Shown piece after piece: positions 34,540 to 38,483 of a stretch of 64,000 bases of DNA; position 1 is the first letter of the stretch, and each line of letters begins with the position of its first letter. The translations under genes were made by a program, and so were the position numbers. The DNA is from an uncultured delta proteobacterium (GTDB taxonomy: Bacteria > Desulfobacterota > Binatia > UBA9968): contig CAWDPO010000040.1 in NCBI GenBank assembly GCA_963804165.1, positions 166,143 through 230,142 of the forward strand, read 5' to 3'. Below the pieces are notes generated by a model that was not told the DNA's origin, did not search any database, and saw only the letters and a list, made by a program, of their open reading frames with translations.

Positions 34540-34624
34540 GTTACAAACAGTCATGCTCGAAATGCTTCGCTGTCAATTTTACGCGTCTACGCGCGAGTAT
34601 GACTAGCGATTGTTTGGCTTGATC

Positions 34625-35980
34625 ATGAGTTCAAATATTCTCGTTATCGACGATGAAGCATTACCGCGAAAGAATATCGCGCGGGTGCTCGCGGAAGAGG
34701 AATATCATGTCTACGAAGCCGAGAACGGCGAGGAGGCGATTAATGCAATCAACGATCTCGACTTCGATCTCGTACTGAGCGATCTCAAAATCCCCGGAAC
34801 AGATGGGCTTGGCGTTCTGCGCCATGTGCGCAGTGTTTCGCCGCAAACCATGTTTATCTTGATGACGGGTTATGCGTCTCTGGACTCGGCGATCGAAGCA
34901 TTCCGCGGCGGTGTCCAGGATTATATCCTAAAGCCGGTGGTGCTCGAGGATGTTCTGCAAAAGGTCAAGCGTCTTATGGAATCGAAGAGCTTGGCGTGGG
35001 AAGTCGAGCTGTTGCGTCGCCAGGTCAACTACAATTCAGAGTCCACCGGTCTGATCGGAGAAAGCCGCATCATCCACGATATTCTCGCGATGATTTCGAA
35101 GGTCGCGCCGACGAGCTCGAACGTCTTGATTACCGGCGAGAGCGGGGTCGGCAAGGAAGTGGTTGCGCGCACATTACATCTTCAAAGCCCGCGGAAGGAT
35201 AAGGTCTTTTTACCGGTCAATTGCAGCGCGATCCCGGAAACGTTGCTCGAAAGCCAGCTGTTCGGCTACGTCAAAGGGGCTTTTACCGGCGCGGCGAACT
35301 CTCAGGAAGGACTTTTCCAGCGCGCTCAAGGCGGTACGATTTTTCTCGACGAAATCGGTGAGATGCCGCTGAGCCTGCAACCGAAAATCCTCCGTGTCAT
35401 CGAGGATAAGGAAGTCTTGCCTATCGGTTCCACGCATCCGTCGAAGTTGAATGTTCGAATCATCGCCGCAACCAACCGCGAGTTGCAAATGGAAGTCGCC
35501 GATGGGCGGTTCCGTGAAGACTTGTTTTATCGCTTTAACGTCATCAACATTCGTGTGCCGCCATTGCGCGAGCGCCGCGAAGACATTCCCTTGTTGGTCG
35601 AACATTTGATTAACCGTCACAACGCTGAAATGAAAAAGACTTATAAAGGCATGGCCAACTCGGCGCTAAGATTGCTTATGTCCCTTCCCTGGAAAGGAAA
35701 CGTGAGGGAATTGGACAACGTCCTCGAACTCGCAATGATATTGGGCAACGGCGAATGGATCACCCCAGCAGAACTGCGCCAGTGCACGCTACCGGCGGAG
35801 GAAAGCAACATCGAGTCGCCGAACAATCTTCGTACCGCAGTTCAATCGTACGAAAAAAGCCATATCGAAAACGTGCTTAAGGAAAGTGCCGGCGACAAAA
35901 CGCGGGCCGCCCAGTTGTTGGGGGTAAGCCGCTCGTCTCTTTATCGCAAGTTAGAGAGTCTCGATATCCACGACGATTGA
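34625..35980 (+). CDS. sigma54-dependent response regulator (NtrC/AtoC family)
   Basis: Receiver; GESGVGKE; GAFTGA; FLDEIGEM; Fis-type HTH SRSSLYRKL. Confidence 0.94.
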   Translation: MSSNILVIDDEALPRKNIARVLAEEEYHVYEAENGEEAINAINDLDFDLVLSDLKIPGTDGLGVLRHVRSVSPQTMFILMTGYASLDSAIEAFRGGVQDYILKPVVLEDVLQKVKRLMESKSLAWEVELLRRQVNYNSESTGLIGESRIIHDILAMISKVAPTSSNVLITGESGVGKEVVARTLHLQSPRKDKVFLPVNCSAIPETLLESQLFGYVKGAFTGAANSQEGLFQRAQGGTIFLDEIGEMPLSLQPKILRVIEDKEVLPIGSTHPSKLNVRIIAATNRELQMEVADGRFREDLFYRFNVINIRVPPLRERREDIPLLVEHLINRHNAEMKKTYKGMANSALRLLMSLPWKGNVRELDNVLELAMILGNGEWITPAELRQCTLPAEESNIESPNNLRTAVQSYEKSHIENVLKESAGDKTRAAQLLGVSRSSLYRKLESLDIHDD

Positions 35981-36358
35981 TAATGCTCTTGTCTACATCC
36001 TTTCCTCTATCGAGCAAATTCTGCATGCTGCGCAAATAGGGTATCAAGCGTCGGTTAGCCCCACGCTTCGGACACTCGGGTTGTCTGGAGTGAATATCCA
36101 CGAATTAGAATGCGCTGAGATGACTCGAGTCGTGTCGTCGAGTTCCCGGCGTTTTCCGTCGTTGCCCGATGTAGTCGATCGGGTTTCCCCGCTTCCACCG
36201 ATGGGATTGCGAGTTCACATACGGCGGCGATGGCGGGAATAAACCACCACCAGCCGAACTTTGTCGAGATGATCAGATCATAGCCCGTATGATTCGGGGA
36301 TGTTGGCCGTCAGCCATAAACAGTTACCGGGCGGCTGGTCAAGAATAATTTCGAACAT

Positions 36359-36388
36359 TGCCTGCAATGTCACCGCGCGTTGCAGGCA
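36359..36388. terminator. Hairpin just downstream of the extended antiporter-rhodanese CDS
   Basis: TGCCTGCAA...TTGCAGGCA, ending 7 nt past the second TGA. Confidence 0.5.
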
Positions 36389-36395
36389 TACACGA

Positions 36396-38021
36396 TCAGA
36401 CATCTAGACTTGGCTTTTCCTCGATCTCTAGTCCGGCGGCTTGCCAAGCGTCCCACCCGCCGATCAGCGCCCGCACGCGCTGCCATCCGGCTCGTTTGAG
36501 TTCCTGCGCCGCACGGGCGCTGGTGGCTTCGTCCGGTCAGGCGCAAAACGTAATGATCCAGGTTTGGCGCGGCACGTTGAGTTCGGCGATTCGGCGGACG
36601 ATCTGATCGGTGGGTATTCGCAGCGCGCCTTGAGCTTGGGATGCGCTGGAGTTGAAACTGGTCTCGGCGCGGACGTCGACGATCAACAAGGGAGCACCGG
36701 AGGACTGCAGCGCGCGGAGTTCTTCGATCGATATACGATCGCTGTCGTTCTCAGCCGCGATTGGACGCGGCGGGTTATCATCGGATTTTGGCATTGCCGT
36801 GTCGATTGGATCGAGGTTTACGGGAGCGGGCGAAGGGGGCGTTCGGCCCAGCAACATCAGCGAGCCACCGTGCAGCGCCACCGACAGCAACACGACGAGG
36901 CAGCAAACGACAAACAACGGCTCGCTGCCCGGCACGCCGGCGAATACCGGCACGAGGATCAATAGTAAGGAGCTCAAACCACGCGGTCCAAACCACGCGA
37001 TCAAGACACAGCTACGGCGCTCTAGGTTAGTCCGCGACAACGACAAGAGGAATGCGATCGGCCGGATCACCACCACGGTTACGGCGAAGAGTACAGTCAT
37101 TGGGTCGAGAACAAGCAGCCCTTGCCATATCAGCGAGCTGCCGAACAGGATGAAGGTAAAGAGCAACGTCATCTCGGCGGTGGTCTGTCCGTATTCGAGA
37201 AAGCAATCGCATAGTTCCACGTCGAGGGCGGCAATCGTCAAGCCGGCGCAGAAAGCGGCCAAGAAGCCGCTGCCATGCACGGCTTCGGCCGCCGCATAGG
37301 CGGCAAACGCCACACCCAGCGAGTATAAGGATTCGTAGTCGCGGCGCACTCCGGTTTTGCGGCGCACCAATTCGAGCGCGCCAATCGCCAGCAAACCCAC
37401 CGTGACGCCGGCTCCGGGCCCGAGGAGAAACAGCTCGAGTGCGAGGCGCGCCGATTCGACGCCCAAGAAATTGCTCTGGCTCATGAAAGCCATGGCGACG
37501 AGAATGATCGGCAGCAAGACGATATCGTTCAAGCCGCTTTCCAGACGCAGCGCCAAGCGCACCGTTTCCGGAAGACCCGGACGTTTCAATAAACCGCGCA
37601 GCATCACCGGATCGGTCGATGCCAGAGCAGCGCCGATCATCAGCGCCGACGCCGGCGAGAAATCCAAAAGCATCCACGCCGCAAGCGCGATGAGGGCCGC
37701 CGAAAGCAAAGTACCGGGCCCAACTACGAGAAATGCCAAAAGGCGATAACGTCGGATCTCGGCGATGCTTAGACTGACCGCATCGGTAAAAAGCACCAGC
37801 ACGAGGCTGAGGGTCGCGACCACCCGCAGAATCGGCGAATCCAGAGAAACATCCAGCAATTGCAACCCCGCGGGGCCGAGCATCGCGCCGAGCGCGAGGA
37901 AAACGCCGACTTGAGGAACGTCGCTGCGATCGATGAGGCCGGATAGAAGCGCGGCGATGATAATCACCACGCCCACCAGGGCCAAGGTCAATACAAAGAA
38001 TTGCGGACTAAACGACTCCAT
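36396..38021 (-). CDS. NhaP-type cation/H+ antiporter fused to rhodanese domain with probable selenocysteine (TGA 36537-36539)
   Basis: ASTDPV, ESGLND, WFGPRG antiporter motifs; IVDVR; past the TGA the frame continues PDEATSARAAQELKRAGWQRVRALIGGWDAWQAAGLEIE, completing the rhodanese fold. Confidence 0.85.
36503..36523 (-). promoter_or_regulatory. Putative bacterial SECIS hairpin
   Basis: CC-A-GCGCC-CGUGC-GGCGC-A-GG starting 14 nt after the UGA; GU in the apical loop. Confidence 0.6.
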
Positions 38022-38483
38022 GGCAGAGGCAATCTTGGCGACTATATCAGTGGGTAAGAGTTAGTCCAGATGTTTTGCATATTGACGAACGAAACAGCCA
38101 TAAAGGGCCCCAAGCGTTGAGCGAAATGCGGTGAAAGTTTTTTCACATTCGCGTCTTTAAGGCCAAGAACTGTCCAACCGATTCGCGAAAGCTCACACCA
38201 AATTTTCTAAAAACAGTGAGTTTCTTTTCTTAATGAGAACTAATAGCGACAAGCGGCAGGAACGAATACGAGATTCGGATCTTTTCCTTCGATGATGTGT
38301 GCGAGCTTCTTGGCCTCCATCCCGAGTACGTGTGGCGCGGACTGCGCAAAACGAAAGGCAAGCACGCGGAATAGGAAAAGCCGGTGCACCGTGATGGAAT
38401 GCGCAGGCGGGCGGCATAATCACCGCATCGTGAGCGGGATGAAAGCTGAACAACACGTTCGCGAATTTATTCGCGAGTGTGTT

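What the first reader, a model, noticed from the sequence alone, without database searches (positions are those of the whole stretch)
36396..38021. Hidden selenoprotein candidate: NhaP antiporter fused to a CxU rhodanese, with SECIS-like hairpin
Seen: the ORF track stops at ...WIITFCA-TGA (36537), halfway through a rhodanese domain. The same frame continues for 46 codons (PDEATSARAAQELKRAGWQRVRALIGGWDAWQAAGLEIE) to a second TGA at 36396, followed by a hairpin. A stem-loop GCGCC-CGUGC-GGCGC lies just 3' of the first UGA, with GU 23-24 nt downstream. Known: related rhodanese domains carry YCxCPNEAxSA, so the TGA sits at a Cys position, and bacterial SECIS elements lie just 3' of the UGA. Inference: an ion antiporter with a Sec redox/sulfur-transfer domain. 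Readthrough could also yield two isoforms depending on selenium. I do not know of a characterised example.
Basis: partly seen in the sequence, partly recalled or inferred. Interest (0 to 1): 0.88.

Follow-up and report, generated by a model that had tools for sequence, protein, structure and literature searches.

The report
Selenocysteine-containing NhaP antiporter–rhodanese fusion
A cation/proton antiporter gene that databases cut short at an in-frame TGA really reads on through selenocysteine into a complete rhodanese-type domain, so many soil bacteria appear to make a selenium-containing ion transporter that has gone unannotated.

Summary
The minus-strand gene 38021..36396 encodes a 541-residue protein. 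It has a 13-helix CPA1/NhaP antiporter, a disordered linker and a complete rhodanese domain. The domain is complete only if the TGA at 36539-36537 is translated.

- **Conservation:** The TGA sits at the same column in 76 of the 80 best relatives from many phyla. The other 4 have Cys.
- **Coding signal:** Codons after the TGA show a coding pattern of variation.
- **SECIS:** A 5-bp hairpin starts 16 nt after the UGA. It is paired in 360 of 360 cells, has three independent compensatory changes, and has frozen synonymous sites.
- **Machinery:** The genome has tRNA-Sec, selA, selB and selD.

The domain is not new. It is closest to NCBIfam NF041203 (rhodanese_LYCAU), which reviews list as the CxU rhodanese selenoprotein. 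It scores below that model's cut-off. The stand-alone members carry the same UGA-plus-hairpin module.

What looks undescribed is the fusion to an ion antiporter. Public protein sets hold it as a truncated ~494-aa "cation:proton antiporter". The same module is also fused to a DedA protein in this genome.

Function is inferred: a cytoplasmic Cys-x-Sec switch that regulates ion/proton exchange.

The parts
36396..38021 (-). Full recoded coding sequence: 541 residues plus the terminal TGA stop (36398-36396); ATG at 38021-38019
   Evidence: Orthologues match residues 1-541 with exactly one in-frame TGA.
36858..37958 (-). CPA1/NhaP cation:proton antiporter transmembrane domain (residues 22-388)
   Evidence: Pfam PF00999, E = 1.1e-37. 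It aligns to PaNhaP 4cz8/4cza over residues 11-375. The AF2 model shows 13 helices, with breaks at residues 134-137 and 344-348.
37611..37616 (-). Thr136-Asp137, in the unwound stretch of helix 5 (ion site)
   Evidence: Aligned to PaNhaP Thr129/Asp130 (residue roles from PMC4381880). Asp137 is invariant and Thr136 at least 90% conserved among 24 sequences.
37524..37529 (-). Asn165-Asp166, the CPA1 'ND' motif
   Evidence: Aligned to PaNhaP Asn158/Asp159. Invariant in 24 of 24 sequences.
36747..36833 (-). Low-confidence Pro-rich linker (residues 397-425)
   Evidence: pLDDT below 50 in the AF2 model. Length and sequence vary among orthologues.
36435..36728 (-). Rhodanese-like domain (residues 432-529), spanning the in-frame TGA
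   Evidence: Pfam PF00581 over profile positions 2-102 of 102. NCBIfam NF041203 scores 87.2 bits against a cut-off of 115. pLDDT is about 90.
36543..36545 (-). Cys493 codon (TGC), the first member of the C-x-U dyad
   Evidence: Cys in 77 of 77 distinct Sec-form sequences and in the 4 Cys forms.
36537..36539 (-). Sec495 codon (UGA)
   Evidence: TGA at this column in 76 of 80 loci, with TGC or TGT in the other 4. TGA is otherwise a normal stop here: it ends 11 of 24 long frames in the window.
36503..36523 (-). Bacterial SECIS element. The core helix is 36520-36516 paired with 36510-36506, with a 5-nt loop CGUGC at 36515-36511. Weaker outer pairs lie at 36523/36522 with 36504/36503.
   Evidence: Core pairs formed in 360 of 360 cells, with both-sided changes at three pairs. 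Third-position entropy is 0.24 bits in the hairpin codons against 1.48 in the flank. It meets all four constraints of the published bSECIS model.
36360..36387 (-). 8-bp inverted repeat after the true stop (possible terminator stem)
   Evidence: Read. The terminator scan did not list it. Not followed up.
38041..38068 (-). Promoter-like site (TGGACT, 16 nt, TATAGT, with TG) just upstream of the ATG
   Evidence: Consensus scan only.

Best explanation
This is one real gene for a 541-residue selenoprotein.

**Architecture.** The N-terminal part is a CPA1/NhaP-type cation/proton antiporter with 13 transmembrane helices. Its ion-site residues are kept. A flexible linker of about 35 residues follows. 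The C-terminal part is a rhodanese-fold domain of the 'LYCAU' type.

**Recoding.** The UGA at 36539-36537 is decoded as selenocysteine (Sec495) by SelB and tRNA-Sec. A small SECIS hairpin directs this. It has a 5-bp G+C stem and a 5-nt loop reading C-G-U/G-G-Y, and it starts 16 nt after the UGA inside the coding sequence. These points are shown by comparison, not by experiment.

**Function (inferred, about 45%).** By homology with PaNhaP, the domain lies on the cytoplasmic side. Its invariant Cys493-x-Sec495 pair sits in the loop between strand 488-492 and helix 499-510. I propose that the pair works as a redox or sulfane-sulfur (or soft-electrophile) switch, for example by forming a selenenylsulfide. 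The switch would tune ion/proton exchange. The logic resembles KefC, a cation/proton exchanger gated by a cytoplasmic thiol-chemistry sensor.

**Origin.** The Sec domain with its SECIS is a portable module. The same module occurs as small proteins that look exported. In this genome it is also fused to a DedA membrane protein.
For: **Sec decoding**
- tRNA-Sec scores 76 bits against a cut-off of 47, and ARAGORN reads anticodon tca.
- selA scores 610 bits and selB 357 bits. selD scores 385 bits and has its own in-frame TGA. All three lie on one contig.
- TGA is a normal stop in this organism: it ends 11 of 24 long frames in the window.

**Conservation of the TGA**
- All 5 orthologous matches among 41 relatives have exactly one TGA inside.
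- In a class-level draw of 401 genomes, 16 of 16 full-length matches have one TGA.
- 76 of the 80 best loci from the species-level genome collection have TGA, and 4 have Cys.
- Four full-length database proteins have Cys at exactly that column.

**Translation after the TGA**
- Over codons +11 to +40, entropy at codon positions 1, 2 and 3 is 0.62, 0.56 and 1.48 bits in 77 distinct sequences.

**SECIS**
- The 5 core pairs are formed in 360 of 360 cells of 72 distinct rows.
- Both-sided changes occur at three pairs: CG to UA in 2 rows, GC to AU in 1 row, and CG to UA in 1 row. There are also 10 wobble intermediates.
- 0 of 500 shuffles reach the observed covariation score. Slid controls pair in 23-55% of cells against 92.5% for the 7-pair structure.
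- The two rows with the synonymous CG to UA change are sisters in the tree, so these are three independent events.
- Third-position entropy falls to 0.24 bits in hairpin codons +6 to +10. Ala +7 is GCC in 73 of 77 sequences, whereas other Ala codons use all four synonyms.
- Three of the 4 Cys forms cannot form the stem: 2, 2 and 3 of 5 pairs, by my reading.
- The element meets the published bSECIS constraints on loop length, stem length, G in the first two loop positions, 16-37 nt spacing, and free energy of -7.5 kcal/mol or lower.

**Sec and Cys forms against the machinery**
- selA is found in 3 of 3 Sec-form genomes tested. It was not found in 2 of 2 Cys-form MAGs.

**The antiporter**
- Pfam PF00999 matches at 1e-37.
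- The PaNhaP residues Glu73, Thr129/Asp130, Glu154/Ser155, Asn158/Asp159 and Arg337 align to Asp80, Thr136/Asp137, Glu161/Ser162, Asn165/Asp166 and Arg347.
- The AF2 model has mean pLDDT 81.6, 13 helices, and breaks at exactly those two motifs.
- The C-terminus of H13 in PaNhaP is cytoplasmic.

**The portable module**
- The identical UGA-plus-hairpin pattern occurs in 27 of 301 genomes of the phylum, at 30 places. The reversed control pattern occurs 0 times.
- Of those 30 places, 27 are frames of 45-221 aa, 2 are NhaP fusions and 1 is a DedA fusion.
- Two stand-alone proteins pass the NF041203 cut-off, at 138 and 182 bits against 115.
Against: **Limits on the Sec claim**
- There is no experimental evidence of selenium incorporation, expression or transport. 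No RNA holder was available.
- On this sequence alone the hairpin is not more stable than shuffles (z = -0.11).
- The outer pair 18-36 is unpaired in 34 of 72 rows.
- One Cys form (L072) can still draw a weak 5-pair stem with two G-U pairs.
- The absence of selA in the two Cys-form MAGs may reflect incompleteness. One of them is only 1.7 Mb.

**Against or neutral for the regulatory role**
- No gene neighbour is conserved. The largest cluster of flanking ORFs is found in 17 of 79 loci.
- The stand-alone relatives have signal-peptide-like N-termini. The module's chemistry is therefore not tied to a transporter or to the cytoplasm.
- The loop after Sec is acidic (P-D/N-E-A-T-S), unlike the basic loops of sulfurtransferases.
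- It is unclear which of Cys493 and Sec495 sits at the canonical catalytic position. Profile alignments put Cys493 there with a loop two residues longer. One ungapped alignment puts Sec495 there.
- Ion specificity is unknown. All NCBIfam K+/H+ and Na+/H+ equivalog models score far below their cut-offs.
Confidence: 0.88

Rival explanations
1. The rhodanese(Sec) domain is a catalytic module rather than a sensor. It would be a membrane-tethered sulfur- or selenium-transferase, or a reductase using the Cys-x-Sec pair (for example acting on a chalcogen or metalloid species). The antiporter would supply local proton or ion coupling, or would simply anchor it.
For: - The fold and nearest families are sulfurtransferases. 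PDB hits include thiosulfate sulfurtransferases, YnjE and GlpE.
- Sec is normally used in catalytic redox sites, as the reviews state.
- The same module exists as a free, probably exported protein. That suits an enzyme.
- A paralogue in this genome has the pair in swapped order, LYUAC. That suggests a two-residue redox centre.
Against: - The loop is acidic and two residues longer than canonical sulfurtransferase loops.
- No partner genes are conserved nearby.
- Being fused to two unrelated proton-coupled membrane proteins, NhaP and DedA, is more easily read as regulation.
Confidence: 0.3
2. The Cys-x-Sec pair, together with the conserved acidic loop residues, binds a soft metal or metalloid cation (such as Cu(I), Hg(II), Cd(II) or As(III)). 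Binding would switch the antiporter, or the protein would handle that ion.
For: - Cys493, Sec495, Glu498, Thr500 and Ser501 are invariant (77 of 77) and residue +2 is Asp or Asn in 73 of 77 sequences.
- Review PMC13188914 says most transporter-linked selenoproteins are implicated in metal or metalloid resistance.
- There is a weak match to the chromate-resistance rhodanese ChrE, at 26 bits.
Against: - No metal-resistance genes are conserved next to it.
- The CPA1 ion site is the ordinary alkali-cation site.
- The ChrE match is far below its cut-off of 120 bits.
Confidence: 0.12
3. The TGA is a true stop. Either the gene is a pseudogene or a naturally truncated antiporter with a dead remnant downstream, or the TGA is a sequencing error.
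For: Gene callers stop there. About 105 of the best 120 database relatives are stored as proteins of about 490-500 aa that cover 91% of the query.
Against: - The same TGA is found in 76 distinct sequences across several phyla.
- The downstream 46 codons show a coding pattern of substitution.
- The Pfam domain is complete only across the TGA.
- Cys homologues are colinear.
- The one relative that lost the site did so by a clean in-frame deletion of the loop.
Confidence: 0.02
4. The UGA is read through, but by a near-cognate tRNA (Trp or Cys) or a suppressor rather than as selenocysteine.
For: No direct chemistry has been shown. The stem is short (5 bp).
Against: - The complete Sec machinery is present.
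- The hairpin fits the bSECIS model.
- It is shared with proteins that pass the curated selenoprotein model NF041203.
- The Cys/Sec alternation at the column is the classical signature.
Confidence: 0.03

Closest known systems
NCBIfam NF041203 'rhodanese_LYCAU, rhodanese-related (seleno)protein'. [quoted passage not shown]
   Same: - Same C-x-U motif in the same loop.
- Same loop sequence after Sec (P-N/D-E-A-T-S-A-R-V-A).
- Same UGA-plus-16-nt-plus-hairpin module at the nucleotide level.
   Different: - The window protein scores 87 bits, below the 115-bit cut-off.
- Stand-alone members are 118-221 aa with signal-peptide-like N-termini. Here the domain is the cytoplasmic C-terminus of a 13-helix antiporter.
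- The motif reads FCAU here, not LYCAU.
PaNhaP / MjNhaP1, archaeal CPA1 Na+/H+ antiporters (PDB 4cz8, 4cza; PMC4381880)
   Same: - The 13-helix fold.
- Unwound helices at the TD and PRG motifs.
- The ND motif and the Glu-Arg pair.
   Different: - Sequence similarity is weak (E = 1e-9).
- Glu73 is Asp here.
- PaNhaP has no C-terminal domain.
- The ion transported here is unknown.
KefC-type glutathione-gated K+/H+ exchange.
   Same: The concept: a cation/proton exchanger whose activity is set by a cytoplasmic C-terminal domain that reports thiol or electrophile chemistry.
   Different: - KefC belongs to CPA2 and has a KTN/RCK domain that binds glutathione adducts.
- There is no rhodanese domain, no Sec and no homology of the sensor domains.
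DedA(PF09335)-rhodanese fusions noted in PMC10127716 (passage read)
   Same: A rhodanese domain at the C-terminus of a proton-motive-force-driven membrane protein. This genome has one with the same Sec module.
   Different: - The membrane partner is different.
- The passage I read in that paper calls the connection unclear. It does not mention selenocysteine.
E. coli fdhF-type bacterial SECIS and the consensus bSECIS model (PMC13188914, Fig. 2A legend)
   Same: - It lies immediately downstream of the UGA, inside the coding sequence.
- It has a small apical loop with G followed by U or G in the first positions.
- There are 21 nt between the UGA and the loop.
   Different: - The conserved helix is only 5 bp, and there is no conserved lower stem.
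- It matches no Rfam family.

Membership tests
Bacterial selenoprotein gene (UGA decoded as Sec) | In-frame UGA conserved among orthologues, with coding conservation downstream | tested here: met
   76 of 80 loci have TGA at the column. Entropy at codon positions 1, 2 and 3 downstream is 0.62, 0.56 and 1.48 bits.
Bacterial selenoprotein gene (UGA decoded as Sec) | Homologues with Cys at the same column | tested here: met
   Cys in 4 of 80 loci and in 4 database proteins. The Cys forms make one group nested among Sec forms.
Bacterial selenoprotein gene (UGA decoded as Sec) | SECIS stem-loop just 3' of the UGA that fits the bSECIS model | tested here: met
   The core helix is paired in 360 of 360 cells, and three pairs have compensatory changes. 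The loop, stem, spacing and energy constraints are met. No bSECISearch program was available.
Bacterial selenoprotein gene (UGA decoded as Sec) | selA, selB, selD and tRNA-Sec in the genome | tested here: met
   All four score above their curated cut-offs.
Bacterial selenoprotein gene (UGA decoded as Sec) | Selenium shown in the protein | not testable with these tools
   This needs 75Se labelling or mass spectrometry.
NCBIfam NF041203 rhodanese_LYCAU (seleno)protein | Score at or above the curated cut-off (115 bits) | tested here: not met
   The window protein scores 87.2 bits. The T. hazakensis fusion scores 87.1 and the DedA fusion 82.4. Stand-alone L154 and L168 score 138.3 and 182.
NCBIfam NF041203 rhodanese_LYCAU (seleno)protein | C-x-U motif and a shared Sec-decoding element | tested here: met
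   The motif is FCAU here, against L/F/T-Y-C-x-U in the stand-alone frames. The same nucleotide pattern is found at 30 places in 27 of 301 genomes.
CPA1 / NhaP cation:proton antiporters | Pfam PF00999 above the gathering score | tested here: met
   130.2 bits against a cut-off of 26.2.
CPA1 / NhaP cation:proton antiporters | Ion-site residues: TD in unwound H5, ES and ND in H6, and Arg in unwound H12 | tested here: met
   Alignment to PaNhaP, with residue roles from PMC4381880. In the 24-sequence alignment Asp137, Glu161, Asn165, Asp166 and Arg347 are invariant and Thr136 and Ser162 at least 90% conserved. Glu73 is Asp80 here.
CPA1 / NhaP cation:proton antiporters | Named equivalog (K+/H+ or Na+/H+ antiporter models of NCBIfam) | tested here: not met
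   The best is NF003716, at 140.5 bits against a cut-off of 355. Ion specificity is therefore open.
CPA1 / NhaP cation:proton antiporters | Cation/proton exchange activity | not testable with these tools
   This needs vesicle or proteoliposome assays.
Rhodanese sulfurtransferases | Rhodanese fold | tested here: met
   PF00581 over the full profile. PDB profile hits reach E = 1e-24. The AF2 domain has pLDDT of about 90.
Rhodanese sulfurtransferases | Catalytic Cys at the start of a six-residue, mostly basic active-site loop | tested here: inconclusive
   The loop between strand 488-492 and helix 499-510 holds both Cys493 and Sec495. Alignments disagree on which one matches the catalytic Cys. 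The loop is acidic, P-D/N-E.

The most novel reading that the evidence does not exclude
The Cys-x-Sec rhodanese domain with its built-in SECIS is a portable 'selenium switch' that bacteria bolt onto proton-coupled membrane proteins. NhaP antiporters carry it in several phyla, and DedA proteins carry it in this genus.

On this reading, cation/proton exchange, and hence cytoplasmic pH and ion balance, is gated by the redox or persulfide state of a selenocysteine. Selenium supply also matters: without selenium the antiporter is made without its switch.

This would be the first selenoprotein among secondary ion antiporters. It would link selenium status to ion homeostasis in abundant soil lineages.
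Probability: 0.35. Interest if true: 0.8.

Novelty: new variant of a known kind. Interest (0 to 1): 0.6.

Why it matters
**Annotation.**
- Of the best 120 database relatives, about 105 are stored as proteins of about 490-500 aa cut at the Sec codon.
- They are named only 'cation:proton antiporter' or 'NhaP-type antiporter'.
- 340 relatives were found in species-level genomes.
- The true product and its regulatory or catalytic domain are therefore invisible to users of those records.

**Biology.**
- The transporter-linked selenoproteins listed in the 2026 review are the mercuric transport protein, a P-type ATPase, YeeE/YedE, the Sao proteins and the SO_0444 efflux transporter.
- That review's text has no occurrence of 'antiporter' or 'exchanger'.
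- A Sec-bearing CPA1 antiporter would add a new functional class.
- It would give a testable handle on what the catalogued but uncharacterised CxU rhodanese selenoproteins do.

**Tractability.** Two cultured carriers exist, Thermosporothrix hazakensis ATCC BAA-1881 and Acidobacteriaceae bacterium KBS 96. Natural Cys forms offer an easy route to expression.

**Method.** The near-invariant 34-nt UGA-to-hairpin module is a precise search key for more members.

Tried and rejected
**Rfam.** There is no match at E up to 10 in 36300-36700. Rfam has no model for this element.

**Single-sequence folding.** The hairpin does not stand out from shuffles. I rest only on comparative evidence.

**Reads.**
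- The look-up of sequencing runs listed only small shares, at most 0.17 of the sampled words. No RNA holder was listed.
- Read laying gave Logan contigs only.
- The three identical 151-nt contigs of X1 do not cover the TGA.
- A 777-nt contig of X19 spans 36395-36575 with 13 differences, but only 8 of them are shown. I therefore cannot state its codon at 36537-36539.
- The check 'TGA in raw reads of the source sample' was therefore not achieved. Independent assemblies replace it.

**Gene neighbourhood.**
- I clustered 1190 flanking ORFs from 79 loci.
- No neighbour was shared widely. The best cluster is found in 17 loci, and many clusters are overlapping antisense frames.
- I did not annotate the clusters further.

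**Catalytic position.** Three kinds of evidence did not settle whether Cys493 or Sec495 is the canonical position: sequence alignment, profile alignment and the model's secondary structure. I had no access to model coordinates.

**Literature.**
- A search for 'rhodanese' plus 'NhaP' gave 0 papers.
- A search for 'selenoprotein' plus 'proton antiporter' plus 'UGA' gave 2 papers, both unrelated by title and abstract.
- A five-term search gave nothing with both rhodanese and an antiporter term among the 20 papers listed.
- These searches cover only the open-access library.
- Supplementary tables of selenoproteome papers were closed and could list this fusion.
- Of the reviews PMC13188914 and PMC9312934, and the papers PMC4381880 and PMC10127716, I read only the passages returned by 'find'.

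**Considered and rejected.** I rejected an alternative genetic code because TGA ends 11 of 24 long frames in the window. I rejected the reading of two separate genes because the domain is continuous and the downstream codons vary as coding sequence.

Full report
**What is in the sequence.** On the minus strand, an ORF of 494 codons runs from the ATG at 38021 to a TGA at 36539-36537. It ends ...WIITFCA. The same frame stays open for 46 more codons, to a second TGA at 36398-36396. Reading the first TGA through gives a 541-residue protein. Pfam finds Na_H_Exchanger over residues 22-388 (E = 1.1e-37). It finds Rhodanese over residues 432-529, covering positions 2-102 of the 102-position profile. 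The first TGA (residue 495) therefore falls in the middle of a domain that is otherwise complete. TGA is an ordinary stop in this organism: it ends 11 of 24 open frames of 300 codons or more in the window. Any read-through must be site-specific.

**Can this genome make selenoproteins?** Yes.
- tRNA-Sec scores 76 bits against a gathering score of 47, and ARAGORN calls it tRNA-SeC with anticodon tca.
- selA (610 bits), selB (357 bits) and selD (385 bits) lie together on one contig, all above their curated cut-offs.
- selD itself has one in-frame TGA.

**Is the TGA conserved?**
- Among 41 related genomes, the five orthologous matches (68-100% identity) all contain exactly one TGA.
- In a draw of 401 genomes of the class, 19 had a match at E of 1e-60 or better, all in one family.
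  - The 16 full-length matches all have one TGA.
  - Two matches are N-terminal fragments at contig ends.
  - One (G393) has a clean in-frame deletion of the loop. It reads AFW-SAR and has neither Sec nor Cys.
- A scan of one genome per species (GTDB) found 340 relatives, of which the best 80 were kept. Of these, 76 have TGA at the column and 4 have TGC or TGT (the one locus my pattern missed is resolved).
- Carriers are labelled Binatia, Acidobacteriota (Pyrinomonadaceae, Blastocatellia, Bryobacteraceae), Chloroflexota, Planctomycetota, Armatimonadota and others.
- They include two isolates, Thermosporothrix hazakensis ATCC BAA-1881 and Acidobacteriaceae bacterium KBS 96.
- The query alignment was led by Cys forms, so Cys forms are if anything over-sampled.
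- In the protein database, the best 120 relatives are almost all proteins of about 490-500 aa that cover 91% of the query. They are cut at the TGA and named only as antiporters.
- Four full-length proteins (544-563 aa) have Cys exactly at the column, FC[AD]CPNEETSGR.
- In a quick maximum-likelihood tree of 81 sequences, the four Cys forms make one group (SH-aLRT 93). That group is nested in a starred clade of Sec forms, and the outgroup also has Sec. Cys therefore looks derived.

**Is the part after the TGA translated?** In 77 distinct Sec-form sequences, codons +11 to +40 after the TGA have mean entropy of 0.62, 0.56 and 1.48 bits at codon positions 1, 2 and 3. This matches the codons before the TGA, at 0.81, 0.54 and 1.33. 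Gly-Gly-Trp and other rhodanese signature residues are invariant.

**The SECIS.**
- A helix GCGCC/GGCGC with a 5-nt loop (CGUGC, CGUGU or CGGGU) starts 16 nt after the UGA, at window 36520-36506.
- On an alignment of 76 sequences (72 distinct rows), all five core pairs are formed in every row, 360 of 360 cells.
- Both-sided changes occur at three different pairs:
  - CG to UA in L104 and L128, through two synonymous changes.
  - GC to AU in L093.
  - CG to UA in L042.
- Ten wobble intermediates also occur.
- For the 7-pair structure, 0 of 500 shuffles reach the observed covariation score. Sliding the partner by 1-3 columns drops pairing from 92.5% to 23-55%.
- L104 and L128 are sisters, so there are three independent events.
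- The two outer pairs are weaker: 68 of 72 and 38 of 72 rows are paired.
- Synonymous sites are frozen in the hairpin codons. Third-position entropy is 0.24 bits, against 1.48 in the flank.
  - Ser +6 is AGC in 75 sequences and AGT in 2, and is never TCN.
  - Ala +7 is GCC in 73 of 77, while Ala at +4, +16, +21, +23 and +30 uses all four codons.
- The four Cys forms form 2, 2, 5 (with two G-U pairs) and 3 of the 5 pairs, by my reading.
- The element meets the four constraints of the published bSECIS model (PMC13188914, Fig. 2A legend). These are a 3-9 nt loop with a 4-16 bp stem, G in the first two loop positions followed by U or G, 16-37 nt between UGA and loop (21 nt here), and free energy of -7.5 kcal/mol or lower (-12.1 here).
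- Against this, the fold of this single G+C-rich sequence is no better than shuffles (z = -0.11), and Rfam has no match.
- selA was found in 3 of 3 Sec-form genomes tested and not in 2 of 2 Cys-form MAGs. One of those is only 1.7 Mb, so this is weak support.

**What the domain is.**
- NCBIfam's best rhodanese model for the protein is NF041203 'rhodanese_LYCAU, rhodanese-related (seleno)protein'. It scores 87 bits over residues 422-536, below the cut-off of 115.
- Two reviews list this family as a predicted selenoprotein with motif CxU (passages read).
- A degenerate nucleotide pattern for 'Cys-x-UGA plus 16 nt plus hairpin' hits 30 places in 27 of 301 genomes of the phylum. The reversed control hits none.
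- Of those 30 places:
  - 27 are frames of 45-221 aa.
  - 2 are NhaP fusions: the window gene, and a 42%-identical one with the same Pfam pair.
  - 1 is a DedA fusion.
- Two of the short proteins pass the NF041203 cut-off, at 138 and 182 bits.
- All ten short proteins I aligned begin with a signal-peptide-like hydrophobic stretch.
- In the window's own genome the module occurs exactly twice: in the window gene, and in a VTT/DedA-rhodanese protein on contig C17 reading VLYCSUPNEATSAR.
- The Sec domain and its SECIS are therefore one inherited, portable module. The window gene is a fusion variant of a known selenoprotein family, not an equivalog member of it.

**The antiporter half.**
- It aligns to PaNhaP (4cz8/4cza) over residues 11-375. 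The residues the PaNhaP paper names are kept:

| PaNhaP residue | Role named in the paper | Residue here |
|---|---|---|
| Glu73 | ion ligand | Asp80 |
| Thr129/Asp130 | ion ligands | Thr136/Asp137 |
| Ser155 | ion ligand | Ser162 |
| Asn158/Asp159 | ND motif | Asn165/Asp166 |
| Glu154-Arg337 | ion pair | Glu161-Arg347 |

- Most of them are invariant in a 24-sequence alignment; Thr136 and Ser162 are at least 90% conserved.
- An AlphaFold2 model built on that alignment has mean pLDDT 81.6 and pTM 0.72.
  - It shows 13 helices, broken at residues 134-137 and 344-348, as in the unwound H5 and H12 of PaNhaP.
  - Residues 397-425 form a linker with pLDDT below 50.
  - The C-terminal domain is confident. 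It has strand 488-492, loop 493-498 (C-A-U-P-D-E) and helix 499-510.
- In PaNhaP the C-terminus of H13 is cytoplasmic. By homology the rhodanese domain is cytoplasmic, which is an inference.
- Ion specificity is open. All named antiporter equivalogs score far below their cut-offs.

**How it most likely works.**
- Shown by comparison: UGA 495 is recoded to Sec by the hairpin 16 nt downstream. The product is an antiporter with a Sec-bearing rhodanese domain.
- Inferred: the invariant pair Cys493-x-Sec495 forms a two-residue redox or ligand centre in the active-site loop. Cys493 is Cys in 77 of 77 sequences.
- A paralogue in this genome has the pair in the reverse order, LYUAC. That fits a selenenylsulfide-type pair.
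- Which residue holds the canonical catalytic position is unresolved.
  - Profile alignments put Cys493 on the catalytic Cys, with a loop two residues longer.
  - One ungapped alignment puts Sec495 there.
- The loop is acidic, unlike sulfurtransferase loops.
- The module is fused to two unrelated proton-coupled membrane proteins, and no partner gene is conserved nearby.
- I therefore favour a regulatory switch on transport (about 45%). A tethered enzyme gets about 30% and a soft-metal sensor about 12%.

**Known or new?**
- The CxU rhodanese selenoprotein is catalogued. DedA-rhodanese fusions are mentioned, without selenocysteine, in PMC10127716.
- I found no paper that holds both 'rhodanese' and 'NhaP' (0 papers).
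- Neither review text mentions an antiporter or exchanger among selenoproteins.
- Supplementary tables were closed, and subscription literature is not covered, so prior listing cannot be excluded.
- I rate it a new variant of a known kind: real, widespread and systematically mis-annotated, with an untested but directly testable function.

Noticed in passing
G000 contig C17:6312-6629 (locus L138:1465-2583, minus strand): A second hidden selenoprotein in the same genome. It is a DedA/VTT-domain membrane protein (PF09335) with a C-terminal rhodanese domain reading VLYCSUPNEATSAR. It carries the same UGA-plus-hairpin module as the window gene. Frames of 335-386 aa with one TGA also matched the rhodanese part of the query in six genus relatives, at about 40% identity.
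   Followed up: partly
G000 contig C13:93840-94142 (locus L139): A third rhodanese frame with an in-frame TGA. Here the pair is reversed (VVLYUACPHH), and the sequence after the TGA is different, without the GCGCC hairpin. The N-terminus looks like a signal peptide.
   Followed up: no
Locus L054 (G393:C420): One orthologue in the same family has lost the whole Cys-x-Sec loop by an in-frame deletion (TWLVAFW-SARVAQ). The rest of the domain and the hairpin sequence are kept. This could be a natural 'switch-less' variant or an assembly artefact.
   Followed up: no
window 36506-36539: Short contigs from three unrelated metagenome runs (X2, X3, X19) match only this 34-nt stretch, from the UGA to the end of the hairpin, and diverge on both sides. 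This fits the module being shared by other genes.
   Followed up: no
G000 contig C16:139949-144339: selD, selB and selA lie next to one another on one strand. selD has an in-frame TGA, so it is itself a selenoprotein.
   Followed up: no
window 34610-35980 (+): The neighbouring gene looks like a sigma-54-dependent response regulator of the NtrC type, judged by eye from the translation (receiver domain, GESGVGKE Walker A, C-terminal HTH). No domain search was run on it, and it is not a conserved neighbour in other phyla.
   Followed up: no
Loci L144-L169 (stand-alone LYCAU proteins): All ten stand-alone members I aligned start with a signal-peptide-like hydrophobic segment. The free form of the module is therefore probably exported, while the fused form is predicted to be cytoplasmic.
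   Followed up: partly
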